From positions 2,170,001-2,234,000 of the forward strand of contig JAYWIR010000019.1 of the NCBI GenBank assembly GCA_036172245.1: DNA of 64,000 nucleotides, given 5' to 3'. The stretch comes from Raillietiella orientalis. Taxonomy: Eukaryota. Positions 5,744-62,803 of the stretch are shown piece by piece. Within the stretch, counting starts at the first letter, position 1; each line of letters starts with the position of its first letter. Made by a program: the position numbers and the translations under genes. Below the pieces are notes generated by a model. That model saw only the letters and a program-made list of their open reading frames with translations, was not told the DNA's origin and did not search any database.

Positions 5744-7403
5744 GGGCGCGTTCGCAGCCACACGGCTGAGCTCTCCGCGAGCGAGTGGAGTCAGTCGTCG
5801 CGGGTTCGAATCCGGGTCCGGAGAAGGATCAACGCCGAGAAATAGAGGGGAGAGGTGCTTTGGGTTTCGATCCCCCCCCCGCAGGACGGCGCTGGTCGAC
5901 CTATTCGGTGCGGCGGCACTAGTTGACACCCGGTCACGTCGGGCCACAGGCGTTTAGTAATAAAAAATAAACGCCTGTGGAAGGACTTTTGGTCTTGTCA
6001 CATTACTTATAACTACGAGAAAGGACCTGCCGTGATCTGGCACGCAGGCCAGTGGGGTTCGCCTCGGCAGCACAGCGGAAGGAGGGGACACAAACAAACA
6101 AAATAAAAATAAAACAGCCAAAAAAAATTGGGGGGAATGGGGAAGGGGGGGAAGGGATCACTGTGTGCTGGAGGGTGTCCTCTGCATCCTTGTAAGGGTG
6201 TTCTGTTTCAAGACTCCTAGATGAGGCTATCTTGAAGCTGCCTTCATGAAGAGGACAGCAAAATAGATGTCGTCCCTGTGGTTCTGGCCTTTTCTGGCGC
6301 TGCTCTGTTCAGCCACGGTCCCTCCGCGTGGGACGCACCGTGCTGCTGGGATGCGGCCGTCGTGAGGGCGTCTCGCAGGAAGAGGAGCTTTCAAACGTCT
6401 CAGGCGTTGATGTCGGCGGTTCCAAGGGTCGCGTCAAAGCGTACCCAAAGTGGCCGGAGGGCAACGCAGCTCACTAGGAGGTGAGGGAGCGAATCCCGCT
6501 CTCCGCACCTTGCACGTTGGTGTCCATTCCTCCCCCCATGTCCAGTGATGCCGGCGGATGTTGCACGGGAGTGCCCAATGCAGCAGCAGCATCAACGCCG
6601 ACTCCTGCCACTTTAAGGGGAGGGTACGGGTGTTCATGAGCACCAAAGACCACTGCAGGTCTTCCTGCAGAATACCCAGTAGCACGCCCCAGCTCAAAAG
6701 TCCATGAGTCCCCCCCCCCTTTCCCCACAGGACGACGCTGGTTGACCCATAGATTCCGAGTGCGGCACTGGTGGAAGCGGGAAACCCCCCGGATGCCCCC
6801 GTTGACCGGCGAGGACTGGAAGTTGACCCTCAGAAGTCCTTCCAGTGACCAAGGAACCCTCCGGGGTTAACCTCCGGTTGTGAAAATGGAGCCTTCCCCC
6901 CTTCCCTCGGGAGACTGGAGACCTTCCATTGCATTTCATGGAGCTGGTTGATATCCCCATCGAAGGGTTGCCCAGCTCCCTTCAGGAAGCAATTAGTCAG
7001 AGAAATTGGAAAGCATCCCTCCGGGGAGGAGGGATGCTTTCAGAGGAGTAAAAACAAGGATCTGTTCCCTTGCGGAATCCCTCCCGAGAAGAAACTCCAG
7101 GAGCGGCTCTTTTCCAGGTTCCCTTTGGCGAAGAAATGATGGAGCGGTCTTCTTCGGAGGAACAAGGAAGAGGCTCCCTTCGGGGTTCTCTTACCAGGCG
7201 CAAGAGGAACGCATTGCTTCCTCCAGAGCCCTACCTGGATTCATAGGGCGTTCCCTCCGGGGCTGCCCTTCAACTTGAAAAGTTACGCGGGTACCCTCGG
7301 GTGGAGTGGATGCTGAACCCTGGACGTGGACGTGGACAGCGTTAAGGAGCTTCGTGAGCCTCTAGGCGAGCTGTGCTTCAGCAAATCGGCGAACCCCCAA
7401 AAA
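5744..7403 (+). mobile_element. tRNA-headed SINE-like element, copy 1 (interrupted by a LINE fragment)
   Basis: B box GGTTCGAATCC near 5803-5813; body 6710-7400 homologous to 62930-63530 and to the reverse complement of 59660-60230; tail ttcagcaaatcggcgaacc + short A run. Confidence 0.7.
5923..6700 (-). mobile_element. 5'-truncated copy of the same LINE family (CCHC tail + 3' UTR), inside SINE-like copy 1, antisense to it
   Basis: Broken translation CK/CGERDSLPHLLVSCVALRPLW..LLFLRDAL matches 48819..49205; ends GTGACCGGGTGTCAA at 5923. Confidence 0.88.
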
Positions 7404-8343
7404 GGAGAAGCCGGAAGGGGAGAACAGCGAAAGCAGAAGACCCCCAAATGATTTCCATCACCCTAGCCCCATGGTGATGATCTCTCCCGTGAGGTCTCTA
7501 TGGCCTTTTGAAAAGAAAAAAGCGAGAACACGTGCGAAGTCCAAGCGGCGGGCAGCTTTGCCACCCGGAGCGCTTCCGCTCGGTGCGCTTATCACGTCCA
7601 TGCGCCGTCGAGGAAGCCCTCGGAGGCCCACGGCTGGCATCCAGCAGACGAGATTCCGTTCCGACGCGACCCCTCGGCCATGGACAGGCTCTCCCGTCGT
7701 CTGACCGGGCTGCCAGCCGAGCTGCGTTTGCTTCGGAATGGCCTCCGTCCGTCCGAAGCCTGGCACTTCGTAGCCTGCAGTCTGACCCCTGTGTACCTCG
7801 CTCAAGAAAGTGGATCTTTCGCAACAACATCCTCCGCTGCCCGACCGCGTGTTCCCCCCCCCTCCCTCCCTCCCTTTTTTCCTTCTCCTCTCCCTCCCAA
7901 CAGCTGCTGTACGACCTCGGCGCGCAGGTTCTCGCTTCTCTGCTCACGAGGTGGCGCGCGAGAGCAAAAGGTGTTCTCTCCAAAGGTCGAACCCACGCAA
8001 CCGGGAGGAGGGGGTCTACAACATTCGCCTCGCCGAGAAGACATTTTTTTTTTCATCCTTCCCCCCCCTTTTCCTTTTAATCTTTTCTCGAGTACACACT
8101 GAAGCCGCGATTCGAATCATCTGGAAAGAAAGGAATTCATCTGTGTGAGAAGAGACGCAGCTTCCTATCCCATTGGATCTCAGTCAAGGATTCCCTTAAT
8201 TCCATCAGCAGATAGAAGAATCCAAGCGAGATTCCGCTGCGTTCATCCTTTCCCAGTCTGTCCGCTCTCTCCTCGGTGCGGGGCTGGGAACTGAGAACCG
8301 ATTCCGGGGACGAAGGATGGCGAGGGGTAGCCTTGGGGCGGCA

Positions 8344-9192
8344 CTACGCAAAGGACTCGTTCCGGAAGCAGGGAAGGAAGCTCGAGACACTCAAGTCGAA
8401 GACGTTCTCGTACGAATCCTGAAGGTCATCCATGTAGCAATAGAAGTCCAGTACCCTGCGCACCATGGGATTCGCTCTTCCCACCGAGTAGATCCAGAGG
8501 ACGTTGCAGTCGCACGGAACGGGATTCCCGTAGCTCAGGAATGCCCGCGTTGTGGGAGCGCGGAGGATGTTCTGGATCAGGGGGAGGAAGGTCTCCACGT
8601 CGTACCTGGTTATGAGGTTGCGGGATATGTCGAGGGCGTACGGCAGGCTTCCATTGCCGAACGCGGCTGCCGGGAGCTCCCTGATGTGATTGCCGGAGAG
8701 GTACATCCTGGGATGCGTCTTGGAGGAGCAGCAGTGCAGCTGCAGACTCGCCGGAGACAGTCTCTCGAGCTTGTTCCCGATAAGGTGCAGGTTTTCCAGG
8801 GACGCCACGTCCGCGAACGCGTATCCTCCGATCTCCATTATGTAGTTGTAGCTGAGGTCCAGGTAGGACAGGGACGTCAGCCCCTGGAACGCCCTCGGAG
8901 GAATGTGGGTCAGCCGGTTGCCGAGGAGGTTCAGGTATCGGAGGTTCCTCAGTTTCCTCAGGGAGTGGAATGGGAAGGCGCAGATGGAGTTCTTCATCAT
9001 GGTGATGTCTGTCAGGTCGGTGAGGGTGTCGAAGAACTGCTCGCCGACCACTCTCAGCAGCCTGTTGCTTTGAACGTTCAGTGACGTGCACGCCAAGTTT
9101 CCCGGGTTGCTCAGAGTTTCCACGTCGCTGTCGTAAACCACCCATTCCAAAAAGTGGCTTTTGGGCATCCTGTGCAGAAACCTCTCCAAGCT
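8344..9192 (-). CDS. LRR gene coding exon 2 (LRR array + LRRCT, stop)
   Basis: 849 nt after a pyrimidine-rich acceptor; same frame as track ORF 8344..9246. Confidence 0.92.
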   Translation of the reverse strand, partial: SLERFLHRMPKSHFLEWVVYDSDVETLSNPGNLACTSLNVQSNRLLRVVGEQFFDTLTDLTDITMMKNSICAFPFHSLRKLRNLRYLNLLGNRLTHIPPRAFQGLTSLSYLDLSYNYIMEIGGYAFADVASLENLHLIGNKLERLSPASLQLHCCSSKTHPRMYLSGNHIRELPAAAFGNGSLPYALDISRNLITRYDVETFLPLIQNILRAPTTRAFLSYGNPVPCDCNVLWIYSVGRANPMVRRVLDFYCYMDDLQDSYENVFDLSVSSFLPCFRNESFA

Positions 9193-12122
9193 CTGGAATA
9201 TCATGTACAAAGGAGAGAAGTGGGTGAAGAAAAGAAAAAAAGTCATCTATGCACGGATGCAAGAGCTGCCGGAGAGACGTCGCGACCGGAACGCTCCGGG
9301 AGTCTCCGGGAGCGATTGCACCGGGAAGGAAACACCGCTCGTTCCTTCGGGCGCGAAGGGGTTTTCCCTCTTCCTCTTCAGTTCGACGAAATGACTCAAA
9401 AGAGCTGCGAAAGTCGGACGCCTGAAGGAGCGGCCGATCCGTCCGACTTCCGTCGCAAAGAGGACGGCGGATTTCGCCGCGAGAAAACCGGAGACGAGGA
9501 TTCGTTGGGTCCACGCAGCCGGACTCGGAACGACAGGAAGGACGGCGGCGATCCTTGCTGGAGGACAAGAGAGCGAGGTGGACGAAGAGCATCGTGGCGA
9601 CAGAGATCGCAACGCGTTTCGAGCGCCGCGGTGGTAGGCTGCGTGCCGAGATCCCGCTTTCTAGAGAAAGGGAGAGAGAGAGAGAAAAAAAGGGGGGGCG
9701 GAAAGATGAGGACTCTTGCCCTGGTGTGCACTCACTGCGGCAAGTGAGTCCTATTTCCCATCGAGGCGGAAGTCTTCGTTCCAGGAAGCGGAAGGGAGAA
9801 GAGAGCGATGGAGGAAGGGAAGGAAAACCACCGGTCTCCCTCCCTGCCTTGCCGCGTCCGGCAAACGCCAAAACGGTGCGTCGGCTGCATGAGAATTTCC
9901 GGGAGACCCCAGGGAAGGGATTTCAGAGGATCGAACAAGAGGAGCGCGCGGCGCGTGCTTTCGACGGATCTCGATCGCCGTCCTTCTTGCCGCAAGAGGT
10001 TTCACGTGTCACAGGGAGCAAAATCTTTCCGGGTTCTTCCGTGGAGAGCAGAAGCGATTCCTGCAAAGTTCTTTCGAGAGGCGCAGCTTCAGGATGCGCT
10101 GGGAAACTCCGACAGTTCGGCTTTCTCCTGCATGAAGAGAGCAAAGTCTTTTTATTTTGGGATGGCGTTGTATAGACTTTGGGAAGGAGCTGAAATTTTA
10201 TTTTCTTCCTAGACAGACACACAAACAAAAAAAATAAAGGTGTACCCGGAATCACGCGACTCCCGAAAGGAGGAACGAATGAGAAACCTGGAACGTTCCA
10301 AAGCTTCCAGAGTAGCTTACGAGCAAAAGGCCGAAGAACGGAGGCTGCAGGCGTGCTGCAGCTTCAGCACAAGGGAAAGGATGCAAGAAGCCTCGCAGCC
10401 TGTGTCCTGCGCGCGCGGACCAAATAGTTTCGAGCTCTGTGAGAAGCAGAAAGAACCAGTGTTTAACCTATGGGTCAGCAGGAGCACGGAGACCAAATGC
10501 TATGGGGTGGAGTGGATGGGCAGCGCTGTCAACAGCTGACGGAACGAGAGGAAAATTTCCAATGCGACCATTCCAGAAAGGAATCGCTAGCACAGATCGC
10601 TGAGTCTCCTGGAAGATTCTGCAATCCGCGGTGCAGAGGTGCCACCTATCGAGCTCTCTCGACAAGGACGAGGAAGAGAGCAAGAAGTCGTCGGCTGCTT
10701 CCTCGAACTCGCTCTTGCAGGCGCGGTTACGGTACTCCGTGGCACCGTTGCGACGCTTCGGATGTCGAGGTAGCAGAAAGCAGGGAGGAAAAAAATTCTG
10801 CGAAGGTTTCCACGCTCTTAACGGCAATTTAAAAACCAGCTCGAGGGCACCCTCGAAGAATCTCGACGTGGTTGGTAAATGGGCGATTCGTTAACTACGC
10901 TCGAAATGGGTACGCTCTCGTGATTTTGATCTTGGGAGAGCGGGGCCTGCCGAGTCTATCTACAAACCCCAGCTCCCATTCAAGCCGTTTTCTCTCTTTC
11001 TCTCTCGAGTATCGTAGACAGCAGCCATAATGGTTGTGTAGCTCGAGATTCCATTGCTTTCCGTTCCACAGCATCCTGATGCTTCCAAGCAATAAGAAGA
11101 GCCCGCAGCTGCGGTTTGGTTTCTCTCTTCAAGCACGAGGGAATACCAACGTGATCCACCCTCTCGTTGGTGCCCTGCAGACACTCGGGAAGGAGCGAGC
11201 GCTCCCCCCGATATACCTCTGCCATCATAAGGCCACGGCAGGACCAGAAGTGAAGCTGAAGCTTGCTGAGAGTGTTCCAGGAAGGAACTTGCAAGTTTCC
11301 ACGCAATCAGGTGTGAGGCGAACCTTCGGGGTAACTGGCGCGTCAGCCCGCGCCTGACACAGCGGCACGTAGCAGCTAATCGCTGCGCGTCCCTCCCCCC
11401 TCCCCTCGATTCTCTGTTCCTCTTACTCCTCCTTATGAAGCTTCCAGCGTCCAGGGAGCGACAGGTTAGCTGCAGCAGCCGTGCAAGAAGAGCAGCATCC
11501 GTTCTCCCGCAGAGGGGACACAGATCCACTGATAACCGGACGGAAGATCTGCATGAAATCAGCTTCCCCGCGACCCACTTACCAGCAGGACGAAAGGGAA
11601 AGAGGGGAAACCACTTTTGCAACGATAAATGGGACACGGATCCTTTCCATCCTTTCTGGAGGTCCACAGATCAGGAGGATCCTCCTCTTAAGACTTTCGT
11701 CGTGTGCTCTCTGAATGGAGTCGTCGCTACACTGAGAGCATTCATTCACAGCAAGGGGCAAAAAACACACACACACACACAAAGGAAAAACAAAAACGAA
11801 AAACGTGCACACTCACACGAATGGGTTCGACTGATGATGAGCGATCGATTACTCCCGAGAGAGAGAGCGAAGTGCAAACGTAAAGAAAAAGAAAAAAAAA
11901 GGAAAGAAAGGACCGTGATCCTTTAACAAGGGCTTAGAATGTACACTTTACCTTCGTGCTGGACACGTACGAACAGTCAATGACGGTCGCATCGTCGGAG
12001 CAGTAGCAGGGGCTCTTCCTTAGCTTGGGAGAGGCGAACTTTATTGTGTCATTGAAAGGTGGGCAAGAGGAATCCACGCGGCTCAGCAAGAAGAACACGA
12101 GCGTCCACATTTGGAAAAGCAT
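8344..12122 (-). CDS. Secreted leucine-rich-repeat protein (LRRNT-LRR-LRRCT), similar to the Oplophorus-luciferin 2-monooxygenase non-catalytic subunit-like family; 2 coding exons, 339 aa
   Basis: complement(join(8344..9192,11952..12122)). ATG in GCCACCATG context, hydrophobic leader MLFQMWTLVFFLLSRVDS, LRRNT-like CP..SPCYC..IDCSYV, donor AAG|gtaaag and acceptor ttccag|AGC both phase 0. Repeats include LRYLNLLGNRLTHIP, LSYLDLSYNYI and LENLHLIGNKLERL, followed by LRRCT GNPVPCDCNVLW. No transmembrane segment before the stop. Confidence 0.88.
11952..12122 (-). CDS. LRR gene coding exon 1 (signal peptide + LRRNT)
   Basis: 171 nt = 57 codons, ends SYVSSTK|gtaaag. Confidence 0.85.
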
Positions 12123-27880: not shown

Positions 27881-27974
27881 CATGAGGCGAAGAGGTTAAC
27901 TACTACCACTTTACTAGACCCTCTTCGCTCACTCGTTCTAGGATAGGGGCGGGGACAGGGGAGCAGAGAAGGGG

Positions 27975-36134: not shown

Positions 36135-36168
<34 letters not shown>

Positions 36169-39100
36169 TGCGACCATCCATCTCTCCTATGTGGGAGTTC
36201 AGCCCTGGCATTCAGCCTGTCTGCATGACGGCTTTTCTTTTTTTTTCTTTTTCTCTTCTTCTTTCCAAAATGGAGCGCGAGACGGTGCCATTTTGAAAAA
36301 GAAGGAGAGGAGTAGGAGAAAAGGAGCCGAGCAGCGGCCACTTTTCCGAAAGATTTCACCCGGAACTGGCAGTCTGAGACCAGCATCGTTTCTGTCTTGG
36401 AGTCATCGCCACGATCCTTCCGGAACGAGCTGCCTTTTGGTCCAGATCTCCTGATGCTGGGCTTCCCACATTCCTCTCGCCGACCGGCGGCAGCAGGAGC
36501 GGATTCTTTTTTTTCCTGGCAGCAACGGCAAGCAGATCGCCCGCCGGAAGTCAAGCGCGCTCATGAAGGCGCAGATGCTCTTTCTTTTGCGCAGATCCAC
36601 TGCTCTCAACTCTCGGAGCACCGCGCTTTTCTCATCTACCTGGATCTCTCGGTGACCTTCCGTGGAAACACACACCGCTCCTTTCCTTGGTTGCTGAAGA
36701 GTCGCGCCCCTCCTTGAAAGGGGGCTCATGAAGCTCTTCAGCTTTGCTCCACGCTACCCGTGGACACGTACGACTCTCCAGGTATAGAGAGTGGCCCAGA
36801 AGGGGCCGCCTTATGAATCCAGGAAGGCTGCGGAGGAAGCAGTCATTCCTCTTACGGCTGGTAAAGAACTCCGAAGGGAACCTCTTCTTTGCCCTCTCCG
36901 GAAGGGTCCTCCAGAAGGTGCTGTCCCTCACTTCTTCAGAGGGAACCCGGAAAGGACCGCGCTTGGAATTTCTTCCCCGGATGTCACCCTCAAGGGAACC
37001 GCTCCCTGTTTCCTCCTCTGAAGAGAACTTCGAAGGGACGCTTCCCCATTTCTCCAAAGGGCCGCTCCCGAAGGGAGCAGAGCACTTCTTTACACTCTGG
37101 AGAGGTATCGATCCACCACCTCCACTTGCACAACCGGAGGGAAACCCCTAAGATGGGTTCTTGTTTCCTGGAAGGACCCCGGAGGGTCGGCTTCCAATCT
37201 GGGACAGTCAACGGGGGTATCTGGTGTCCATAATTGTTTCACCCGAAGCCAACCGAGGTCAACCAGCGTCGTCCTTCGGGGTAAGGAGACTCGAAATCCA
37301 CGACGCGCACCCCCTGTTTTCAGCGTCGATCCTCACCTGGGTGGATTTGAACCAGCGACGCGACACCCAGTGTCTTGTGCGGAGGCTGCAGCAGAACTGC
37401 CCCCAGCGCGGGCTCTGACCACTCCCTGGTGTGCCAGTAAAGCCCCGGAGCGAGGGACTCCGGGAGACCTCGGACTCTCAGGTGTTTCGGTCTCCTGCTC
37501 CCGAGTCTCAGGACTTGGAGATGTGACGGTACTGTTGCCAAGCGCAACCAGATTGTCCAGGAAGCAGGCAGGCAGCAAGAGCCCTCGGATCCACCCAAAG
37601 ACAGACGTCCCCTCAGGATAGGAGCGGCGGGCTGCTCTTCTACCCCTGTGCTCGCGACGGGGAAGAACCCGTCCTTCCCCCGCTTCTCTCAGGGTCACAG
37701 AGAAGACCCCGGGGTGGTTGTTGCAGCTGAACTTCCTTCCTCCTCCCCATTTCCCCCGGGCGTCGAGACTGCGGCAAGGAGCTGCCCCTCTTTCTCCGGA
37801 AAGGGGAAAAAGACCCGCTTTCCTGCTGTTCGCGACCAGCGGACACGCCGGAGCATGTGGTTGTCCCTGGTACCAGAGCTCCAGAGGTTGCCGGGAATGC
37901 CACCGATGTCTGGCGTAACGGGGTCGCTTCCTAAAGCACCGTTGCGGGACAACGGACGAAGAAATCGATCGATGACCGAAGGAGATGTCTGGAATTCCCG
38001 ATCAGGCAGGCTACCGGCGGGAGGGCAGCGTCCGTTCGGAATAGACGATAAGGGAAGAGGACGACGAGCCAAAGCAATCCCTCGATCTGGATGTACGTGG
38101 GCTGCTCGATCCGTATCTATGGCGATAGCGGGGTGAAAACCCCGAGCATCCAAAGCGGAGATGTGAGCAATGCACTTGGGTCGCAGAGTGACCCGGACTC
38201 TGCGGTCGTGGAGGAGTTGGGTGAAGAAAGAGGACGGAAGAGCATCTCCCGGGACTTTCTTTTCAGGAAGGAAGCCGGCAGTTCGATCCCCCACTGGGAG
38301 CCACCACCACGCTTATAGCGCCCACTGGGAGCCACTGCTGAAGGAGAGGGGGGGATGGGGTTCAGGGGATAATCACAAGAAATCAGGAAAGGGGGAGGGG
38401 CGTGGAAGGTGGACTCAGACAGTAAACGAGATGTAGATGGGCACCCGAGGTAAGCACAGGAGATAAACTCAGGATTGGGTTCAGAAGGTGGGCGTAGAAA
38501 GTGGGCTCAGGTAATGAGCAAGTTGTAGAGGGGCACAGAAGTGGGAACAGGAGGCGGACACAGGACATGGGAGCAAAAGGTGAACGTGGAAGCTGGGTGC
38601 GGATCGGCGAGAGAGGTGTAAATGGGCGCAGAAAGTAGGCGCAAGAGGTATGCGCAGGAAAGAGGTCCCTTCGCCCTGCCGATGGGCGATTCCTTCCCGA
38701 GGAAAAAGAATGGCGCACGCGGCTAGATGGGGCCTGCCTCCGGATGGAGCGAAGGCGCCAGGCGTTGTGCTCTCTCTCGGCCCGTAAGTTGGCCCGCACA
38801 CACTCCTGTGCGAGTTTCGAGGGGCGTGACGGGAGGAGGAGGGTTCGGTGGGGAGCAATCGGCGCTGCGCCCTTCTCTCCTCGCTGGGTGGGCGAGCCTG
38901 TCCGAGACAAGCCGGGATACGGAGCAGGGAGCGACCGGCAATATCCAAGACGACAACGCGCGCCTGCGCTCCGCAGCGTCATCGGGAACTGACGGGAGGC
39001 TGCGCGCGAGAGAGGATGCCATCCCGAGGATGCAGAAGGATGGGCGTCGGAGACTCCCTGCTCCTTGGGGTGAGGGGACAGCGCTGCTGACCCTTAGGAG

Positions 39101-39397: not shown

Positions 39398-39399
39398 CG

Positions 39400-48605: not shown

Positions 48606-51600
48606 TTCAAACCCGGTCACACCGGGGCGTTTATTTCCAAACTCTGTACATTTGTGGTACGAGGTCCCGCTACGGCCAATAGATCGTGGGGCCTACCGGG
48701 AAGCCGGTACGCAGACCGGCTTGACTCTCCTCGGCAGCGGAGGGGGTGGGGGAGAAAACAAAAATAAAAATAAAAAGGAAAACAAAAAAAAGAAACACTT
48801 TGGTGGGCCGGGAAGGGATCACTGTCCGCTGGAGGAAGAGACCATCCTTTCCAGGATGCCCTTGAGGTCACTCTGCATAGCCCCCAGATGGGACCATCCG
48901 ATCGCGATTCTCAGATAGCGACCCGCGTGTACGATGGGGTCCCTATCGCTGCTTCCTCTGTTGGCTGCGCTCCAGGCGGCCACAATCCCTCGGAGGCAGC
49001 AGAGCGCTGCCAGGGTTGAGGCTGGTGGCAGGGCGTCTCGCACGAAGAGGAGTCTCACAACGTCTCTGGGGGTGCTGCCGACCGGCATCCGGAGGGTCGT
49101 AGCAAAACGTTCCCACAAGGGCCGGAGGGCAGCGCAGTCCACTAACAGGTGGGGGAGGGATTCCTTCTCCCCGCACACTGTACAGTTCGGTCCCACCTTC
49201 CCCAACGTCCAGTGGTGACGGTGCGCGTTTCAGGGAAGACCCCAGTGCTACAGCAGCAGCGCCGATTCCTGCCACTTGAGGGGAGAGTGGACGTGTCTGT
49301 AAATACCGGTGGCCACTTTAGTTCACCCAGCAGGATGCCCAGCAGCTCGCTCCATCTCTGAAGTCCTCGAGGGAGGACACTTGGAGTCGCGGCGTCAGCC
49401 AGTTCCCTCATGGTCCAGCCTCTTAACAGCTTTTCCTTGCCCGCCATCCAGCCGCTTAATGCTATTGCCACCTCGGCGTTCGGCTGCTGCCGAGCACCCT
49501 CCTCAGGAAGGGCAGCGCGTGGTCAGCGGGGTCGTCTCCACCCACGTGCTTCTGGCGAGACACTCGAGCATGTTGCGGGTGTAGATGCCGGGTCGCAGGC
49601 GGTTCCAGGATTCACCACTTGACTGGTTCAACTTCGCCCACATGCCAACTGTTTCTTCCATCCATGCGCTGGAGTTGGCGGAGCTGCAGGCCATCCAGCC
49701 GTTCTCCTTTGCCGAGGTGGCCATGCGTCCGAGGAGAAGGCCGCATCTTCTTATTTTCCGGCCGCGGCTCAGGAGATGAAAGCTCTCCCGCTCCGGATAC
49801 ACGGCTGGCGAGGAGACGGGCCGGACCTCACCAATGGATGCTCCAGTACTTCGCCGCGATGGCCAAGGTTCGCCATCGCAGCTGATTTTCCATCCGCTCC
49901 AGCGTCAGAAGGCCAAGGCCGCCATCCGACGTCGAGCGCACAAGTCTTGCAGAGACACATGGACCTCCCGCTGCCCCACAGGGCGATTCGCAGGAGGTCC
50001 TTTGTCCTCTTCCCCAACTCTTGGGGTAAGGGGCAAGAAAAAACAGGGGGCGAAGAAGGGGGGCGCGAACGCGTTTCACACTGCGGCCCGTTCCGGCGAG
50101 TCAAACTTGTCTTCCAAGAACGGGCCGATCGCCGACTCCACTTTCTGGAGACGATCTGACCAGGCTTCTGACTGGCAGAAGTCCCCCAACGGAACACCGA
50201 CGTACTTTAAGAACCTCTCCGTAGGGATCCCCAGGCGGATTCAGTCAGGTCGTCCTGCCCACGTTGCACCAACCACTACCACCGACGACTTCGATCTGTT
50301 CACCCGTAGTCCTGTCCCGTGGCTCAGCAAGTCGAAGAAATTCTCGACTGCCGAAGCCGGGTCGGACATGGGCAGCAGCAGCAGAAGATCGTAAGCATAT
50401 GCCGACACGGCCGGCGTACCGGGGCACGAGCTTGGCAGGGCAGCCAATGTCACCCTGTATGCTCTCAGCACCAGTTCGAAATAGGTGCTAAAGAGCAGGG
50501 GACTCAGGCTGTCGCCCTGCCGGATGCCGCGCCTTACCGGCACGCCGAACACGTTTTGTCCTCTGAAAAAAACGGCGATGATCGCATTGCGCCAGCAGGC
50601 GCGCAGGTAGGCCGTTAAGGTGTCCGGGAAGCCCATGCGATCCAGGAGCTCCAGAAGGAGTTCCTGGTCCACGCAATGGAACGCTTTGTGCAGATCGACT
50701 GCGATCGCTAGAGCCCCCTTCCCTCCCCGATCGTCCCTTACTTGCCCCGCTGGCGCCCCCAAATCAGGGTTGCCGACATTCTATTTTTCCTTGTTTCCTT
50801 CCCGTTGCACATGGAACCATGTGCCGGCGAGGAACAGGTTCGCTTCCATGCTTCTCACGGGAACAGCGTAAGTCTGTTCTGGGCTGATGAAGCTGTCCGC
50901 TACCTGTCCCAGCCACGCAGACCGCAGTCCAGCCAGCAACTTGGCGTCGTGTTAACAATTGTGATCGGACGCTAGTTGCTTAATTTACGGAGGTCTCCTC
51001 CCTTGAGAAGGAACCTCACCCTGACTGACCGAAACGAGGCGGGAACATCTCCTTCGTCTCGGATCAACCGTGTCAACTCGAGCACCAGGGTGGTCAGCTC
51101 TGCCGCGAAGCACTGAAAGAACTCCGCTGGCAGGCAGTCTACCCCTGGCGCCTTACACCTCTTGAGCCTTTTAATCGCGGTGATGATTTCACCGGTCGTA
51201 AAAGGCTCGTCGAGGCTTTCTTTCTCCTCCTCCCCTATGGCCGGGGCTCCATCCGGAAGCAGGAGCCCCGAGGCATCCCACTCTGCAGGTGCCCTGGCGT
51301 AAAGGGAGGAGTAAAACCCCCGCACGAGGCGACGTACCGATGCCGGGTCCGAGTGTTCCTGGTCCCGGTCGTCCAGAACGCTGGGCGGTCCGGATTTCCA
51401 GGCTTGACGCTGGGCTCCGGCTTTGTTCTCGGCCAAGCGACGGACGTTAGGGGTCCTCGGGTAACGACAGGCGTGCAAATACACCCTTTCGTTGAGGCCC
51501 CCTCACCGATCCGGGGGGCAGGCGGTGCAAGGGGAACTCCTCACAGAACTCGCGGACCGATTCCTTAAAAAGGTCCCAGTCAGCGAGATTCCGGAGGGTG

Positions 51601-52699: not shown

Positions 52700-53850
52700 C
52701 AGCATAAGGGGCAGCAGGATTTCGGTTCCTTTACTCTGAAATCGATACTAATGCAGACCAACTGGCGCGAGCACATGTATGGAAAACACACCTACATACA
52801 CACACACACACACACACGCACGATTTGTTTTATTTTTTTCTTTTCGTTTGTCTCCTCTTCCCCTGTGCTGCAGAGGCGAACCCTCCTGGCCTGCATGCCA
52901 GTTCCCGGCAGGTTCCTTCTCCTAGTTATAAGCAATGTGGCAGGACATTTGATCCTGGCATGTTTGTTTGTTTTCTAAATAAAGACCTCGGGGTGACCGG
53001 TGTCAAACCACACACACACGTTTGGTTCAAATCATCGCTACAGGTGGTGGTAGCCATAACAAAGGAATCCTTCAGAAAGCACTGGGGAATCCTCCAACCG
53101 AAGCGACCACGAAACCGCAAATGGGTACGAACAAAAAAGGAGGACTTCTCGAACTTTCGTGGAGACGCTCGTCCTCGTGGCTCTTGAGATGTTCAGCACG
53201 TGCAATTTCATTTTTGCCCTGGTCCCCCGCAGAGAAAAGATGGAAAATTAAGTTTGCACGCAAATCCGCTCAGACTGGGAAGCGACCAAAGAAAGATGAG
53301 GACGAAACCAGGCATTTGGTTGTCCTGCAAAGCAATGAGTAATCCATGAACTCTGATTGCTCCCTTGCATTCGAACTTGGGTGCCCACAGATTCCTCGTT
53401 CGTTTGCTCCAGAGGGATCCGCAGAAAACTCTTCTTCTCTCACTCCCAGATTGGAATTCTCCTCCGATCGTCTTCAACGCCTGCCTCGTTCCTTACTGCT
53501 CCAGCCGTCGCAGAAAATCTGCAGTCGGCTGAAGAAACCCCCAGCCGAAGAATGAGGAAGGAATTGTTCTTTCGGTGATGATGATGCAGCTCGGCCTCGA
53601 CCAATCTCGAGTGGGGTTCCAAGTGTGCTCGTTAGTGAGCCAACTCGCTTCTGTGAAAGGACCATCACCATAGTTGGCTGCAGTACCTTTACGACCAATG
53701 ATCCTCTCTTCGCGTTAAACCAGGCTCCTGGATTCAGGAAAGCTCCCAATCCAAAGCTTTCAGAAGTGACGCGCAGAAGGACCGTTGTCAAAGAGATGTC
53801 TTTGAAGAAATAAAGGCTGTTACGGGTTTCCACATTTCAAACAGAGCTAA
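52700..53850 (-). pseudogene. Second fossil MULE transposase, interrupted by a (CA)n tract and the LINE 3' UTR fragment
   Basis: FLRIPLEQTNEES, LIFHLFSA, CSYPF, FEPNV in MULE order; DNA ggaaccgaaatcc shared with the 56 kb copy (ggaacccaaatcc). Confidence 0.45.
52821..53006 (+). mobile_element. 3'-UTR-only LINE fragment inserted in a (CA)n tract
   Basis: Homologous to 60745-60932 (tgtgctg..gaggcgaaccc..ctggcctgc.tgccag..tagttataag.aatgtg); ends AATAAA..GTGACCGGTGTCAA; cacacacacacg on both sides. Confidence 0.8.
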
Positions 53851-56059: not shown

Positions 56060-56640
56060 CCGGGAAGTCTGATGTGGATTTGGGTTCCAAGGGAACCATC
56101 CTCTGAGCGTGGTTCATTTCATCCCAATTCTTTGGAGGAATCCGTGCAGCGAGGACCTCGGACCTGCAGGCTTGAGACTGTTATCACCACATCCGCCATC
56201 TTTTTTCGAACAGGGGGATGTGGATTTCGTAGTGAAGTCACGCAACGGTGCAACGCCCTCACATGTCCAGAAAAGGAAGTGCGGAAGTCTGCACCAGAAC
56301 GCGGCTTCCAGTCCTGAGCGTCCTCCGGTAATCGGGAAGATGGAAAAATCGGCAACACTGAAGGATGGAATGGCCTACCGCCTCTGGTAGTTTGAGAGCG
56401 CGTTCCGCGAAGACTGTGACGAGGTTTCGCTTCCCTTCGCGGATGTATTCGTACACCTGCGTGGGCGTCCAAGAGGATCGCGAGGAAAGGAACGCCGAAC
56501 TCCAGATGATCGCTCGCATTCATCTGACGAGGATAAAGATTCCAAACTACCTGGAAGAATGGATTCCAATTCATCCGAACACTCCAGGAGAACTGCCTCT
56601 TACTCGTGCTTGCAGATGATGTGCCGGAGGATAATACCAT
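56060..56640 (-). pseudogene. Fossil Mutator-like (MULE) DDE transposase
   Basis: Ordered motifs with stops and frameshifts: GVPFLAILL / TPTQVYEYI, LVTVFAERAL..AV, QCCRFFHL, SALPFL, LFEKRW, IPPKNW. These follow the MULE order P..Y.LL, KT...Y, DFE.A, CxFH, ALPFL, YFE.TW, PP..W. May extend further upstream. Confidence 0.62.
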
Positions 56641-59600
56641 TTTTAACTGCCTGTGAGACCGTGGTCTTGCGATGGTCTCTTCATCTCGGCTGATGATCCA
56701 AGCTGTGCTTCCAATATAGATCTCCTTGGGGCAGTGGAATGTCGCATCGCAGCACCTGCTTGGCGATCATCCCGTGCGTTCCATCGATCATTTGAGGATC
56801 TGGATTTTTCTCAGTACTTCTTCTGGACCCCGTGAATCTTAGGGATCTTGCGGCAACAGCGTTGACGGACCTTTTTGCCTCTTCCGATTCCTGAGCAGAA
56901 GCTCGGCAGGGGTGAGAGAGACGAAGAGTCGATCTCTCCTCGACCGTAGACGAGCACCCACCAGGTCGTACACTCGAAAGGAATACTGCATCTGCAAAGC
57001 CAGGAAGATAAAGTGAGCTCTTCTGCCTTTTTGAGCGTCTTCACTGACGTCAAACATCGCAGCGAGCCAGCTGCCGCCTGATCTTCCCCTTTGAAAACAC
57101 GCACTGTGATAAACAGCACGTCAGTGAAGATCTCGGAGGTAAACAAAGAATGCGGAAAGAAGACTCAGAAGGTACATGAGGAGACGGCTGCCAAGACATG
57201 CTGTCGTGAATGAGAATACCGAAGGGAAATTTCCTATTCTTTCATCTGCTTCTTGAATCCGAGGTGAGGTTCCGCTACCACACCTCTGATTCGATGACTG
57301 TGGGCGTGACGTATTTGTGGGACAGCAAAGGAGAGCCAACGCAAGGGAAAGTCATCTGCAAAAAAGCCAGTGTTGCTTTGCGAATGGTCTCGCGAGACGA
57401 GGCGATGTCTTTCAGGTGCACGACGAGACTCGAAAAGACTTCCGGATGCTCCATCGCCCAACGAACATCATCCGTGACCTAATGGGATGTTGGTTCCCTG
57501 TGATTTATTTCCCTTCGCTTACGTCCTCTCGATGCTGAGGACCGGTCCTTCGAATGTCTCCTTTCACCTGTCTTATCTCTGGGAGCTTCGAAATTATCAG
57601 GTGCTTCTCTTCCAAATTCTTCACACCGCTCCGTACTGCTCCCTTCCGAAACCAGTGACCAGGTCCTGACCTGCTGAAGGAATTCATGACTTTGGATACT
57701 AAGGAAACAGTAGATTTCCCACATTGTTGCAAAAACAACAACCAAAATCTGGCAGTTATAGACAACACTTCAACACAGGAATGTCACGCTTTTCATCCCG
57801 GTGCCTAAGTGAACGATGATTGGCTGAGCTATTCCGAGTTTTTCCCACGTAGCTTCTTCTCCAGAAGCTACGTGGGAGCGATCCTGGTTCTAGTGAACAG
57901 CATCCGTCCAGAGATTTACCGGAGGTTGACTTTTTTGCCCTGAACCAGAATCTGGGATGTATCTCCAGGAAATGAACCTGGGACGCACCACACCGACGAG
58001 GTACTGAGAGCAACATCCTAGAGGCCACAGGACTCCCGTGAGACGTCGGTGCCAGAAAGAAGGGTCCAGGAGTCGTGTCCATTTGGAATGGGAAGCATAG
58101 AGATGAAGCACCCCCGGAAGTTGCTTTTTCGACCGCCGCATTTCGTTTGTTCTTGACTGCTGCAGGCGCTTAGGCTTCGATGTCTTGCGTTGTCCATCGT
58201 TTGAGGCGCACTGCCTCGCTGGCAACTTTGGAGTCGGGGATCATCCCAACCCCATCCCATTCCTTTCCTCCTTCCGCCTGTTAAGGATCACCCTAGCTCG
58301 TTTTTGTTTTTTCCTGTTTTTGCGGAAGCCGCCAGAAATTTTCGTGTTCTTGCCAGCACCAGGCTTAAGGATTGGCCATCATCCTCCATCTTCGCTTCGT
58401 TGATACGAGCAGCCCTGGACTCGAATCCGCTGAAATCCCTCTTGCGTGACCGGAAGAAGAAGAAGAGGACTGTATTCCTTATCGCCGTCCTCGTCCTGCA
58501 TCAGCTGGGAAGATGATCATCTCCGTTAGCAGACTCTAAGACCTCCAGCGGTCAGGAGTATCGGAAAACTCTAGATCTCACGCCCGGTCCGAGGCACCCG
58601 CGCTGGAGCACCTACTTCGGACTGCGCACCCGCGCACCCGAAGAGAGCGTTCCCCTCACGAGGGGCGCGTCTCGAATCAGATGGAGGCGGACCAGCGCGG
58701 TGGCAGCACGGAATACAAAATCGCCTCCGCTTCCTGGCAGGCAAAAAAACAGAGAAATCGAAGACAAAAGAGCCTGAGCGAACCGAGGAGTTGCGGACTG
58801 TATCCGATGATCCGAATGTCGACTCTTCGAAGAAGGGGAGGGAGTGACAGCTGCGGCGCGATTGCGGGGCAAAAAAAAAAAGGATGCAAGAGCAGCGCGA
58901 ACAGAGACGTCCGAAGAGCGATTGGCCTCCGAAGTGGGAAAGGAAAGAGGCCAAGTGGAACAGCATGCAGGGTCCGTGGGCAAGAAACATCGTTCCCAGA
59001 TCTCGGAGAGAAGCTGCGAAGGCAGACTTCCATCGCTTCCAGACGTCCATTTGGGTGATTTTCTTCTTAAAAAAAAAAAAAAAAAAAAAAGACAGCAGAA
59101 GGGAAAAGTTGCGATCAATGGCGAATTTAAAATCAGCGTTTTTGGGTAAAGAAATTACTCTCGAAGCGCATGCAGGGCGTGTGAGAGGTCCATCACAAGC
59201 GTGGAAGGAAGTGGACCGGCGGAAGACTCTATGGGAGCAGAGCGAGGTGCCCTTCGGAACGTGGACAGTCGTCGAGCAGCATCCTGAGCGGATAGCAGTA
59301 GCGCCACAGGAGTTTCCGAGGAGTACCTCGTCTCCGGAACAGGAGAAAGTGCGTCGCAGTAGTTCCACTGACGATCCCGTCACGAATCGCCGTTACCATC
59401 GCAACGCCGGTGACGCTGACGAAGAGATTAAAAGTTCCGGAAACTCATTGCACCGTGAAGAGGCATTCCCTCGTTATGGGAGCGATGCGCCCACCGTTCG
59501 AGGAGTGAAATGGGATCTTCCCAAAGTGGAAGCTGTAACCTACATCACGGTGCAAGCCATCCACTCATTAAAAAAAAAATAAAAAGTGATGGCACATAAT

Positions 59601-60229
59601 TGCGGATGTGAAAATTATCTTTTTTTTGCTTTTTTTGTTTTCAGTTTTTTTTTTTTTTTTTGGTCCGCCAAGTGCTGAAGAACCGTTAGCCTCCTTAGCA
59701 GAGACTCATGGAGCTCTTTGACACGGTCCACGACACCTGAGAGTACGCGTAACTCTTCAAGTTATAGGGGGCAATCCGGGAGGGGACCACCCTATGGATC
59801 CAGGAATGCTCCGACGGAACGAGTCCACTTCTCTTACACTCGGAAGGGGAACCCGGAAGCGAAGAGAACCACGCCCTGGTTGTCTCCAAAGGGAACCCCG
59901 AAGGCCAGAACCTCCCCTCTTTTTCTACGGAGGGAACCTGCAAGGGAATCGCTCCCTGTTTCATCCCGGCTCCCTGTTTCTCCTCTGAAGAGAGCTTCGA
60001 AGGGAGCGGAGCTCTTCCACCCACTCTGGAAAGACAACCGACCCCCCGAAGCTCCAGAGTAAGCGATGGAGGGTCTTCCATGAGGGAAGGGATGGCTTCA
60101 TCTTCACAACCGGGGGAGAGAAACCCGGAAGGTTCCTTGATTTCTTGAATTGAATCCTCGGAGGGTCAGCTTCCAATTCCAGCCACTATACGGGAGCACC
60201 CGAGGATTTTCGGCTTCTATCAGTACCGC

Positions 60230-60932
60230 ACCCTCCCCTTAAAGTGTCAGGAGTCGGCGTTGATGCTGCTGCTGCATTGGGCACTCCCGTGCAACATCCG
60301 CCGGCATCACTGGACATGGGGGGAGGAATGGACACCAACGTGCAAGGTGCGGAGAGCGGGATTCGCTCCCTCACCTCCTAGTGAGCTGCGTTGCCCTCCG
60401 GCCACTTTGGGTACGCTTTGACGCGACCCTTGGAACCGCCGACGTCAACGCCTGAGACGTTTGAAAGCTCCTCTTCCTGCGAGACGCCCTCACGACGGCC
60501 GCATCCCAGCAGCACGGTGCGTCCCACGCGGAGGGACCGTGGCTGAACAGAGCAGCGCCAGAAAAGGCCAGAACCACAGGGACGACATCTATTTTGCTGT
60601 CCTCTTCATGAAGGCAGCTTCAAGATAGCCTCATCTAGGAGTCTTGAAACAGAACACCCTTACAAGGATGCAGAGGACACCCTCCAGCACACAGTGATCC
60701 CTTCCCCCCCTTCCCCATTCCCCCCAATTTTTTTTGGCTGTTTTATTTTTATTTTGTTTGTTTGTGTCCCCTCCTTCCGCTGTGCTGCCGAGGCGAACCC
60801 CACTGGCCTGCGTGCCAGATCACGGCAGGTCCTTTCTCGTAGTTATAAGTAATGTGACAAGACCAAAAGTCCTTCCACAGGCGTTTATTTTTTATTACTA
60901 AACGCCTGTGGCCCGACGTGACCGGGTGTCAA
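60230..60932 (+). mobile_element. 5'-truncated LINE copy inside SINE-like copy 3, antisense to it; near-identical to 5923-6625
   Basis: Reverse complement of 5923-6625 with about 2 substitutions; flanked by cagtaccgca (60221-60230) and cagtgccgca (60934-60943). Confidence 0.88.
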
Positions 60933-60988
60933 CCAGTGCCGCAACCAAAGCCCACAGGTCAACCGGTCATCCTGCATCCTTTGCAGGC

Positions 60989-62025
60989 TTGACACCCGGT
61001 TGCGCCAGAGCGTTTATTTATATAAAATAAATCCACAATTCAGTGGCAGGATGCTTGTTCCTGCCGCATTACCCAGGGAACCTGCCGAGAACTGGTACGC
61101 AGGCCGGCGAAGTTTCGCCTTGGCAGCAGGGGAGAGAGGGAGGGGGGGAGACAAACAAAAAGAAAAATAAAACCAAAAAATGTATACAAAAAAATTGGAG
61201 GAGAGTTCGGGAAGGCATCCCTCATTCTTGCCAGGATGCCGGCAAGTTCCTGTCTCAGGATATCCAGATGGGGCCATCTTGACGCTACCCTCATGAAGAG
61301 GATGGTAAAGCAGATGGTGCCCCTATCGTTGTGGTCTCCTCTGGCGTTGCTCCATGCAGCCACGATCCCGCGTAGGCAGCAAAGTGCTGGTAGGGATGCA
61401 GCCGGCTTGAGGGAGTCGCACGAGAATAGGCGCTTGAAAACGTCTCTGGGGTTGCTCTCGGGGATCCTCAGGGACACAGCGGAGCGTTCCTACAGGGGGC
61501 GGAGGGCAAAATCTACGAGCAGGTGCGGGAGGGACTTTCTTGCGCCGCACCTGCCGCTGTTTGGGATCGCACTCCCCCAGGTCCGATGGTGTCAGCGAGT
61601 GTTGCACGGGAGACCCCAACGCAACAGCAGGATCGCCGACTCCTGCCACTTTAGGGGGAGCGTAGCACTGTTTCAGCACGCCGGGAGCCACTATACCTCC
61701 TTCAGAGGGATCTGTAGCAGCTCTTCCCAGTATAGCAGTCCTTTGGGCGGGGCAGTCGGGGTGGGGTCGCTGCGTCCGACAGCTCCCGAGTTGCCCACGC
61801 ACCCAGCTGTTGCCTTTTCCCGTTCTGGATAGTAAATATCACTTTTCTGCTCGCCGGAAGTTGGGTGTCCTTAAATCCTCTTAGGGAGGGCAGCACGGGG
61901 GTGAAGGGGGTGAACGAAGCCCACGGCAGATTCCTGGTGTTCCCCAGGTTCCTCGACGGCTGACGAGCTTATATGCTGTTCCGTAGGCAGATGTACATTT
62001 GCCGCATTGCACGCTCGTCATGTTT
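60989..62025 (-). mobile_element. 5'-truncated LINE copy (diverged subfamily) inside SINE-like copy 3, sense to it; tail-to-tail with 60230-60932
   Basis: WATRELSDAATP and LCCLRGIVAAWS..VASRWPHL match the 48.8-49.5 kb element; AATAAA then CCGGGTGTCAA terminus at 60989. Confidence 0.88.
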
Positions 62026-62803
62026 TTGGAAGGTGGGGAGAGGGCGACTCGCAGCCCACGACATGCCCATTTCTCGCAGTCGATCCTTCCCCTGGGCAGG
62101 ATTCGAACGCACGACGTTTCGTGCAACGCGCGGAGGAGACCGCAGCCACACGTCCGCCAACGCGGGCCGACGATCAGTTTCCCTTCAATTATTACGGGAA
62201 CAGATGAACCGCCTGCGAGGAGAGCAAGGAGCGAAGGACCTTGGCAATCTCCAGAACTGTTCCTTCTTTTTCGTGGAGCGGTGTGCATCGACGATGCAGT
62301 CTGGCAATGCCGGCACTGAATGCTAATGTCGTCGCTTGGAGCTCGCGAGACGTCCCAAGACCTCGCCATGGAAAATGGTGAGGTGGAGGGGGAGGATGCC
62401 GCCTAGCAACGGTTCCCTGAACTCCTGGGTCATCTCATCGCGGAACTTAGATCGAGCGAAATGGGAATCTCTTCCTCGTCGCTTAATTGGAGACGCGAGC
62501 CGAATCGAAATGATGGCTGGGGCATAGACGAGAACGCGGGTACACGATGACCGCGTACTTCCCGATGACCATTCCGCTCATTTCCTCAAGTCGGTCGATT
62601 TTTCTCTCTTTCGTCCCTCCGTCACCTCTCCAAGGATTTGCCTCCCGACCTCGCGGATTGCATTCCCTGCCGTCGAGTCCCGGTGGAGGTGCTGCTGCCG
62701 TCTGCGCGAAAACGACGGGGCGATCCCCAGTCCAGCCGGCATCGGATCTGTGGACCACGGGGGCTCGAGAAGAACACATGTAATGGACCCGGTGCCCGAG
62801 CGA

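What the first reader, a model, noticed from the sequence alone, without database searches (positions are those of the whole stretch)
5744..62167. A Tx1/L1-like LINE that appears to target a tRNA-headed SINE just downstream of its B box
Seen: three of five copies of one LINE family (5923-6700, 60230-60932, 60989-62025) lie inside copies of the SINE-like element, which covers only a few percent of the window. Two abut the same SINE motif (LINE end GTGTCAA followed by c[t/c]agtgccgc) in two clearly diverged SINE hosts. The 60.2 kb copy has a 9/10 TSD-like pair cagtaccgca/cagtgccgca. The third, a diverged subfamily in the opposite orientation, lies ~56 bp away. With the inserts removed, the sites are about 70, 110 and 125 bp 3' of the B box. 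Known: Tx1-group LINEs are often target-specific (Tx1L into Tx1D, Dewa into tRNA-array spacers, Keno into U2 snRNA), and Dictyostelium TRE3 integrates about 100 bp downstream of tRNA genes. Inference: a LINE that parasitises a SINE, possibly its own dependent SINE, guided by sequence or by TFIIIC bound at the B box. Caveat: two of the three copies may derive from one event (see the 704-bp duplicate).
Basis: partly seen in the sequence, partly recalled or inferred. Interest (0 to 1): 0.78.

Follow-up and report, generated by a model that had tools for sequence, protein, structure and literature searches.

The report
LINE fragments nested in SINE-like repeat
Three dead fragments of an L1-like jumping gene sit inside two copies of a SINE-like repeat, two of them at exactly the same 10-base motif, which hints at targeted insertion but cannot be proven from this one window.

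Summary
Five 5'-truncated copies of one L1-superclade LINE lie in the window, and 3 of 5 sit in a ~750-bp SINE-like repeat that covers 5.5% of it. L1 (5923-6703) and L2 (60231-60932) abut the same motif GCGGCACT(A/G)G. L2 has a 9/10 10-bp target-site duplication (TSD) and 5' microhomology. L3 lies 56 bp away in the opposite orientation.

- L1 and L2 differ at 2 of 703 bases, yet share at least 2 frameshifts and 3 stop codons. Their source was therefore a dead copy, and they may not be independent.
- 2 of 5 copies (L4, L5) lie outside the SINE.
- LINE and SINE 3' tails are unrelated, so this is not the SINE's partner LINE.
- ARAGORN and Rfam do not call the heads tRNA.
- A second ~99% inverted pair (902 bp, S_A/S_B) shows that DNA-level copying occurs in this region.

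Best reading (0.42): trans-mobilised dead LINE RNA re-entered the same SINE motif by target-primed reverse transcription, guided by sequence or by homology. Main rival (0.28): templated DNA repair copied L1 into host 2.

The decisive genome-wide test could not be run. No genome is held, no sequencing run was listed, and the contig scans gave only chance hits. If real, this is a new member of the known target-preferring L1/Tx1-type LINEs.

The parts
5923..6703 (-). L1: 5'-truncated LINE fragment (ORF2 C-terminus plus 3' UTR), antisense to SINE host 1
   Evidence: 3' end ACCGGGTGTCAA at 5923-5934
60231..60932 (+). L2: 5'-truncated LINE fragment. It differs from L1 at 2 of 703 LINE bases. A microhomology zone at 60226-60230 overlaps the left TSD copy
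60989..62025 (-). L3: diverged (66-69%) copy of the same LINE family, in the same sense as SINE host 2. Its 5' end is approximate
48606..51379 (-). L4: longest copy, with a decayed RT and C-terminal CCHC region. It may extend to about 52300. It is not in the SINE
   Evidence: RVT_1 E 5e-13 and weak zf-RVT; tblastn with P0001 covers 49566-51379; its flank shows no SINE homology
52823..53007 (+). L5: ~185-bp 3' UTR fragment flanked on both sides by (CA)n. It is not in the SINE
5740..5922 (+). SINE host 1, left part (profile positions 3-216): tRNA-like head plus unit U1, ending in the motif GCGGCACTAG
6707..7480 (+). SINE host 1, right part (profile positions 132-859): starts with unit U2 (6712-6771), which carries an unoccupied GCGGCACTGG
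59565..60230 (-). SINE host 2, body and A-rich tail (profile positions 186-859)
60933..60988 (-). SINE host 2, the 56-bp unit between the facing 3' ends of L2 and L3 (profile positions 146-218)
   Evidence: E 9.4e-10
62026..62168 (-). SINE host 2, head (profile positions 6-165) with CGTTCGAATCC at 62099-62109
62802..63546 (+). S_A: SINE copy without a LINE insert. It has a perfect B-box-like motif at 62864-62874, and its target motif has diverged
36673..37417 (-). S_B: SINE copy without a LINE insert. Its body is ~99% identical to S_A and its head 56% identical
60221..60230 (+). Left copy of the L2 target-site duplication (cagtaccgca). The right copy is at 60934-60943 (cagtgccgca)
   Evidence: read directly
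5913..5922 (+). Target motif GCGGCACTAG abutting the L1 3' end. Other exact instances: 60933-60942 (-, abuts L2) and 6762-6771 (+, empty)
   Evidence: 3 exact matches in the window, 2 of 3 occupied; 0 of 11 one-mismatch sites occupied

Best explanation
The window holds five decayed, 5'-truncated copies of an L1-superclade LINE. It has no poly(A) tail and ends in ...GACCGGGTGTCAA(C), behind an AATAAA-like signal and a 3' stem-loop.

I read L2, and probably L1, as products of target-primed reverse transcription (TPRT) of RNA from an already dead family member, possibly the L1 locus itself, mobilised in trans. In this reading the SINE-sense strand was nicked after 5'-GCGGCACTG-3'. That 3' OH primed cDNA from the LINE 3' end. 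The 5' end was joined by microhomology, leaving a 10-bp TSD.

Re-use of the same base in two SINE copies that are only ~65% identical would then reflect one of two things. Either the endonuclease/RT complex prefers this motif, or read-through RNA carrying SINE flank paired with the homologous site. The preference belongs to one subfamily and is not strict.

Shown: the anatomy, the junctions and the shared lesions. Inferred: TPRT as the copying process, trans-mobilisation, and the cue.
For: - Both copies end at the natural LINE terminus that L3, L4 and L5 also have, and abut GCGGCACT(A/G)G in the same orientation.
- The exact motif occurs 3 times in 64 kb, all in these hosts, and 2 of 3 instances are occupied.
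- L2 has a 9/10 10-bp TSD and 4-5 nt of 5' microhomology.
- L1 and L2 have different 5' truncation points: 781 vs ~702 nt are retained.
- The flanks diverge immediately beyond the 10-nt motif, and the hosts are 64-66% identical. That is too diverged for ordinary gene conversion (established knowledge, not tested here).
- The two uninterrupted SINE copies match the motif at only 5 of 10 positions.
- The L1/L2 3' end folds into a 13-bp stem-loop, z = -3.9. This is typical of LINEs recognised through their 3' end, which tolerate trans-mobilisation (paper abstract in the listing, PMC4176376).
- Enrichment in the window: 3 of 5, P = 1.5e-3.
Against: - L1 and L2 share at least 2 frameshifts and 3 in-frame stops relative to the L4 ORF, so no cis-acting active master made them.
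- They are each other's only close relative seen here, lie 54 kb apart and inverted, and L2 is a subset of L1. All of this is what DNA-level copying predicts.
- A second inverted pair at ~99% identity (S_A/S_B, 902 bp) has no retroelement-like ends, so DNA-level copying does occur in this region.
- L1 has no TSD. It is flanked by a ~57-bp SINE overlap that is only 73% identical. That requires an extra event, such as an insertion-linked deletion between two neighbouring SINE copies.
- The L2 TSD has a mismatch although the LINE pair is 99.7% identical.
- 2 of 5 family members lie outside the SINE.
- One perfect motif (6762-6771) is empty.
- n is tiny, and the window was picked because of this feature.
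Confidence: 0.42

Rival explanations
1. DNA-level templated copying. A break or stalled fork at the motif in host 2 invaded the L1 locus through the shared 10-nt motif. About 700 nt of the fossil LINE were copied, and the strand returned through microhomology 10 nt upstream (SDSA/MMBIR-type templated insertion). No retrotransposition occurred and there is no target preference. Only L3 and one older LINE insertion would then lie in the SINE.
For: - The source was a dead copy.
- L2 is a strict subset of L1 and differs at 2 of 703 bases.
- The two are in cis, 54 kb apart and inverted.
- There is homology or microhomology at both junctions: 9/10 at the 3' side and CCG(T/C)A at the 5' side.
- The S_A/S_B pair shows another ~0.9-kb, ~99% inverted copy with diverged flanks and no retroelement ends in the same TE cluster.
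- With L1 and L2 as one event, enrichment falls to 2 of 4, P = 0.017.
Against: - Templated insertions of 700 nt seeded by 10 nt are rare (established knowledge).
- A clean 10-bp direct duplication and an end exactly at the LINE terminus are the textbook outcome of TPRT.
- This reading does not explain why L3, of another subfamily, lies 56 bp away.
Confidence: 0.28
2. Composite ancestor. One ancient LINE insertion with a ~57-bp TSD created a SINE+LINE composite. The composite was copied, the copies diverged, host 2 lost ~120 bp, and the LINE part was later homogenised.
For: - The U1/U2 overlap in host 1 looks like an old long TSD (73% identical).
- A microhomology-mediated deletion from a host-1-like structure would reproduce the L2 'TSD'.
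- The decay of the LINE part fits an old age.
Against: - Homogenisation between sequences ~65% identical is implausible (established knowledge).
- Hosts 1 and 2 are not each other's closest relatives: head identity is 64% for h1-h2 against 78% for S_A-h2, and body identity is 66% against 68% for h1-S_A.
- U1 is no closer to U2 than to units of other copies.
- The antisense LINE carries two T4 runs on the SINE-sense strand.
- Homology between the loci stops at the SINE ends.
Confidence: 0.07
3. Position cue rather than sequence cue. Integration is steered to ~70-130 bp downstream of a B box by DNA-bound TFIIIC, as with Dictyostelium TRE3, in either orientation.
For: - The sites lie 73, 109 and 129 bp downstream of B-box-like motifs, in both orientations and from two subfamilies.
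- This is within the TRE3 range of ~100 bp (14-305 bp in Table 1 of PMC5006619, passages read).
- A one-mismatch B-box-like motif lies 17 bp 3' of L5.
Against: - S_A has a perfect B box and no insert, and S_B has none either.
- L4 has no such motif nearby.
- The window has no tRNA gene, and the heads are not recognisable tRNAs.
- Two hits at the very same base argue for a sequence cue.
- One-mismatch B-box matches are expected 3.1 times by chance in the window.
Confidence: 0.08
4. No biology of targeting at all. This is either chance nesting of transposons in a tolerated, repeat-rich stretch, or collapse/over-polishing of repeats in the assembly that makes L1 and L2 look identical.
For: - The region 59.5-64 kb is a transposon cluster.
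- Nested insertions accumulate where selection allows them.
- Both ~99% pairs have one arm in this cluster.
Against: - The same base, the same orientation and a TSD are not expected by chance.
- The junction sequences are specific to each locus.
Confidence: 0.1

Closest known systems
Tx1-clade target-preferring LINEs: Tx1L into the piggyBac derivative Tx1D; crocodilian Tx1-Mar into Mariner-N4_AMi; Tx1-8_Crp and Tx1-4_AMi into LTR elements; Keno into U2 snRNA genes; Dewa into the tRNA-Leu spacer
   Same: These are L1-related LINEs with an APE-type endonuclease that insert at a fixed sequence inside another multicopy element. Passages read in PMC4494074 and PMC3706591. In the window, two copies sit at one motif of another repeat.
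   Different: The target here would be a SINE-like retroposon. Only 2-3 events are seen, and 2 of 5 family members lie elsewhere. Clade membership is untested. PMC4494074 describes the Tx1 clade as a group found in animals, whereas the nearest relatives found here are only ~30% identical and come from ticks, vertebrates, plants and fungi.
Dictyostelium TRE3 (and Skipper-2): integration ~100 bp downstream of tRNA genes
   Same: The distance window downstream of a B-box-bearing unit is similar (73-129 bp here). ORF2 has the order APE-RT-zinc finger (PMC5006619).
   Different: TRE3 elements are found at real tRNA genes and end in poly(A). Here there are no tRNA genes and no poly(A), and two inserts share the same base. 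Uninterrupted copies with good B boxes exist.
R2-type use of co-transcribed target sequence to guide integration
   Same: Read-through RNA carrying downstream target sequence could pair with the homologous site. The idea is cited in PMC4494074. L1/L2 have ACTAAA where L3-L5 have AATAAA, which would favour read-through.
   Different: R2 has a restriction-like endonuclease and a ribosomal DNA target. No read-through RNA has been shown here.
L1 insertion-associated deletions and microhomology-mediated 5' joining (recalled from the mammalian L1 literature, not looked up)
   Same: This would explain host 1: SINE positions 3-216 on one side of L1 and 132-859 on the other, with AGTCC repeated at the 5' junction.
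   Different: Inferred only. No empty site is available.

Membership tests
Non-LTR retrotransposon, L1 superclade | Reverse transcriptase domain of LINE type, closest to L1 ORF2p | tested here: met
   L4 ORF 50244-50780: RVT_1 at E 5e-13. P0001 is 75% identical to it. P0001 matches human L1 ORF2p at E 7e-40, against R2 at 7e-17.
Non-LTR retrotransposon, L1 superclade | N-terminal APE-type endonuclease | tested here: inconclusive
   The ORF upstream of the RT in L4 (51450-52331) has no Pfam hit and no BLASTP similarity to P0002, a partial relative that retains only the C-terminal end of the endonuclease domain. Of the first 8 long relatives listed for P0001, 7 carry PF03372 + PF00078 + PF13966.
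Non-LTR retrotransposon, L1 superclade | C-terminal Cys-His (zf-RVT-like) motif | tested here: inconclusive
   zf-RVT at E 0.013, 16.6 bits, below the 27.5-bit cut-off. The motif C-x2-C-x7-H-x4-C is readable in L4 and damaged in L1, L2 and L3.
Non-LTR retrotransposon, L1 superclade | 5' truncation, TSD and poly(A) tail | tested here: inconclusive
   5' truncation is seen in 5 of 5 copies. A TSD is seen for L2 (9/10) and is (CA)n-like for L5. There is no poly(A) in 0 of 5 copies.
Tx1 clade | RT phylogeny groups the element with Tx1 | not testable with these tools
   No labelled Tx1 reference could be obtained. The named hits carry only automatic names.
Tx1 clade | Sequence-specific insertion into a multicopy target | tested here: inconclusive
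   2 of 5 copies sit at one motif and 3 of 5 in one repeat. Independence is unproven.
tRNA-derived SINE (SINE2) | Head recognisable as tRNA-derived, with A and B boxes | tested here: inconclusive
   The B-box-like motif GGTTCRAATCC is exact in 3 of 4 heads and has one mismatch in the fourth. ARAGORN finds 0 genes. Rfam finds no tRNA (for the whole window; at E<=10 over two heads). RNAalifold gives no cloverleaf.
tRNA-derived SINE (SINE2) | 3' tail shared with the partner LINE (tested here against this LINE) | tested here: not met
   Only A/T-run matches of 17 nt or less between LINE and SINE tails, best E 0.005.
TRE3-like tRNA-gene targeting | Copies found downstream of genuine tRNA genes | tested here: not met
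   There are no tRNA genes in the window. The distance of 73-129 bp from B-box-like motifs is compatible.

The most novel reading that the evidence does not exclude
A pol III-linked integration niche outside the dictyostelids. Retroelements of this genome would be steered to a short zone behind B-box-bearing, tRNA-like heads. The 'SINE' itself would then be layered by such events. Two LINE subfamilies enter 73-129 bp behind the B box in either orientation, and the ~99% identical 902-bp S_A/S_B unit starts exactly at the end of two heads that are only 56% identical.
Probability: 0.08. Interest if true: 0.65.

Novelty: new member of a known kind. Interest (0 to 1): 0.35.

Why it matters
Target-preferring LINEs show how mobile elements find harmless landing sites, and they are studied as tools for site-directed gene delivery. 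L1/Tx1-type elements are already known to target DNA transposons, LTR elements, snRNA genes and a tRNA spacer. A SINE-like retroposon would be a further target class. A homology-guided route (read-through RNA pairing with another copy of the host repeat) would be a simple way for specificity to arise without a specialised endonuclease. With only this window, the case remains a lead, not a result.

Tried and rejected
- Whole genome: none is held for this window.
- Sequencing runs: none was listed, so no reads could be laid.
- Metagenome scan with the LINE terminus: 120 stretches, all chance. The longest BLAST match to the LINE was 24 nt, and there were no SINE matches.
- Scan of genome contigs with P0001: one distant RT at 26% identity on a MAG contig.
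- Scan of viral contigs with P0001: 0 loci. Scan with the terminus pattern: 2 chance stretches, with no BLAST similarity at E<=1e-4.
- Protein database search with the L1 ORF that spans the 5' junction: no hit. The copy number of the dead variant is therefore unknown.
- Earlier findings of this scan: nothing by place, by sequence or by words.
- Hypothesis that SINE-Y had inserted into a longer LINE: rejected. There is no LINE coding sequence right of 7480; tblastn with P0001 hits only L4.
- Hypothesis that U1/U2 is a fresh long TSD: rejected. They are 73% identical, no closer than units from different copies.
- Endonuclease in L4 by Pfam and BLASTP: nothing.
- Literature: the phrase 'inserted into SINE' occurred in none of the 15 papers listed from 33 that held 2 of 3 terms. 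This is only a word search and does not show that the case is not in print.

Full report
WHAT IS THERE

The window is ~59% G+C eukaryote-like DNA. It holds five copies of one repeat family that behaves like a 5'-truncated LINE. Named in LINE sense, they are:
- L1: 5923-6703 (-)
- L2: 60231-60932 (+)
- L3: 60989-~62025 (-)
- L4: 48606-~51379 (-)
- L5: ~52823-53007 (+)

L1 and L2 are 99.4% identical over 717 nt, a span that includes 10 nt of flank. Within the 703 shared LINE positions they differ at 2. Identity of the others to L1/L2 is 66-69% for L3, ~72% for L4, and 82% over 125 nt for L5.

THE LINE

- Of 84 ORFs of 180 aa or more in the window, none matched a reverse transcriptase. One was an LRR protein at 8347-9246.
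- Among 9 shorter ORFs of L4, one gave RVT_1 at E 5e-13 and one gave a sub-threshold zf-RVT match at E 0.013.
- tblastn with the relative P0001 finds RT coding only in L4.
- P0001 is a 619-aa protein from a public 2.9-kb contig, 75% identical to the L4 RT.
- P0001 matches human L1 ORF2p at E 7e-40, against R2 proteins at about 1e-15 to 1e-17.
- Its longer relatives are ~30% identical, and 7 of the first 8 listed have endonuclease/exonuclease/phosphatase + RVT_1 + zf-RVT.

The family is therefore L1-like in the broad sense. I could not show an endonuclease in the window. I could not place the family in or out of the Tx1 clade, because no labelled reference was available.

All five copies end in ...ACCGGGTGTCAA or a close variant and have no poly(A). 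L3-L5 keep AATAAA about 25 nt before the end, where L1/L2 read ACTAAA. The L1/L2 end folds into a 13-bp stem-loop with z = -3.9.

THE HOST REPEAT

A profile of the SINE-like element finds exactly four copies and one tail fragment, 3513 bp or 5.5% of the window. Each copy has three parts:
- a ~85-nt head with a B-box-like GGTTCRAATCC, exact in 3 of 4 heads and with one mismatch in host 2;
- a ~600-nt body;
- a stem-loop followed by an A-rich tail.

ARAGORN, Rfam and RNAalifold do not recognise the heads as tRNA. 'tRNA-like' therefore rests on the B box alone. Copies are old: 61-68% identical in the body and 55-78% in the head. The SINE tail shares nothing with the LINE tail beyond A/T runs of 17 nt or less. 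This LINE is therefore not the SINE's partner by the usual criterion.

THE JUNCTIONS

- L1 and L2 lie antisense to their hosts and end at ...GTGTCAA|C(T/C)AGTGCCGC. In other words, they sit right after GCGGCACT(A/G)G on the SINE-sense strand.
- That exact motif occurs three times in the window, all in hosts 1 and 2. Two of the three are occupied. None of the 11 one-mismatch sites is occupied.
- The uninterrupted copies S_A and S_B match the motif at only 5 of 10 positions.
- L2 is flanked by cagtaccgca/cagtgccgca. Its 5' junction overlaps the LINE sequence by CCG(T/C)A. These are classic marks of target-primed insertion.
- L3, of another subfamily, lies 56 bp away in the SINE-sense orientation. 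It has no clear TSD.
- With the inserts removed, the sites are 73 (L3), 109 (L1) and 129 (L2) bp behind the B-box-like motif.
- L4 and L5 are not in the SINE. L5 sits in a (CA)n tract.

WHAT COMPLICATES THE STORY

1. L1 and L2 share at least two frameshifts and three in-frame stops relative to the open C-terminal ORF of L4. The sequence that was copied was already dead.
2. L2 is a subset of L1. The two lie 54 kb apart and are inverted.
3. L1 has no TSD. Host 1 covers profile positions 3-216 on one side of L1 and 132-859 on the other. The ~57-bp overlap (U1/U2) is only 73% identical, no closer than units of different copies. Host 1 thus looks like two SINE copies joined at the insertion, or like an old long TSD.
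4. A second inverted pair exists: S_A 62885-63786 and S_B 37333-36432. It is 902 bp long and ~99% identical. It starts exactly at the end of heads that are only 56% identical. Its right end is not retroelement-like, and the right flank of S_B has no SINE homology. Something other than plain retrotransposition copies ~1-kb pieces in this region.

WEIGHING

Chance alone is unlikely. P is 1.5e-3 for 3 of 5, or 1.7e-2 for 2 of 4 if L1 and L2 are one event. The same base and orientation would not recur by chance. These figures assume uniform insertion and ignore that the window was chosen for this feature.

Ordinary gene conversion between old paralogues is implausible at ~65% identity. The composite-ancestor idea is further weakened because hosts 1 and 2 are not each other's closest relatives. 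Two serious readings remain:
- Trans-mobilised RNA of a dead copy re-entered the same SINE motif by target-primed reverse transcription. This explains the terminus, the TSD, the microhomology and the different truncation points. It needs an extra event to explain host 1.
- A templated DNA-repair event copied L1 into host 2 through the shared 10-nt motif. This explains the dead source, the proximity and the subset relation, and it has a local precedent in S_A/S_B.

I put these at 0.42 and 0.28. A B-box/TFIIIC cue gets 0.08: S_A has a perfect B box and no insert, and two hits at one base point to sequence.

COMPARISON WITH WHAT IS KNOWN

- Tx1-clade LINEs often insert into other repeats. Examples are Tx1 into Tx1D, crocodilian Tx1-Mar into Mariner-N4_AMi, two families into LTR elements, and Keno into U2 genes (passages of PMC4494074). 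Dewa inserts into the tRNA-Leu spacer (passage of PMC3706591).
- TRE3 elements lie ~100 bp downstream of tRNA genes (passages of PMC5006619).
- If the preference here is real, it is a further member of this kind with a SINE-like target. It is not a new principle.

WHAT COULD NOT BE DONE

It could not be run:
- No genome is held.
- No sequencing run was listed.
- Contig scans gave only chance or distant hits.
- The protein database holds nothing for the L1/L2 ORF.

The verdict therefore rests on 64 kb.

Noticed in passing
62885-63786 (+) and 36432-37333 (-): A 902-bp inverted pair, ~99% identical. It begins exactly after the tRNA-like head of two SINE copies whose heads are only 56% identical. 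It runs 240 bp past the SINE tail. The right flank of S_B has no SINE homology. The origin is unclear: a DNA-level copy, or an element that lands behind such heads.
   Followed up: partly
5874-5922 and 6712-6771: A ~57-bp stretch of the SINE is present on both sides of L1 at only 73% identity. Host 1 looks like two different SINE copies joined at the LINE, with AGTCC repeated at the 5' junction (6699-6712).
   Followed up: partly
8347-9246 (-): ORF with leucine-rich repeats (LRR_8, E 4e-27). It is the only clear cellular coding match among 84 long ORFs. It lies upstream of L1 on the same strand, so read-through transcription of L1 is conceivable.
   Followed up: no
52823-53034: L5 is a ~185-bp LINE tail flanked on both sides by (CA)n. 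A one-mismatch B-box-like GGTTCAAATCA lies 17 bp beyond its 3' end. About 3 such matches are expected by chance in the window.
   Followed up: partly
63781-63982 (+): A separate 5'-truncated SINE tail fragment (profile positions 685-854) lies 240 bp downstream of S_A.
   Followed up: no
20570-20956 and 29230-29575; 1583-1812: Another dispersed repeat pair (68% identical over ~390 bp) and a two-unit tandem repeat of ~115 bp. Neither is related to the LINE or the SINE.
   Followed up: no
63440-63530 (+): The SINE 3' end folds into a long stem-loop (-37.5 kcal/mol, z = -3.5) ahead of the A-rich tail. This suggests a partner LINE of the 3'-end-recognising type that is not in this window. The host 1 copy does not fold this way (z = +0.8).
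   Followed up: partly
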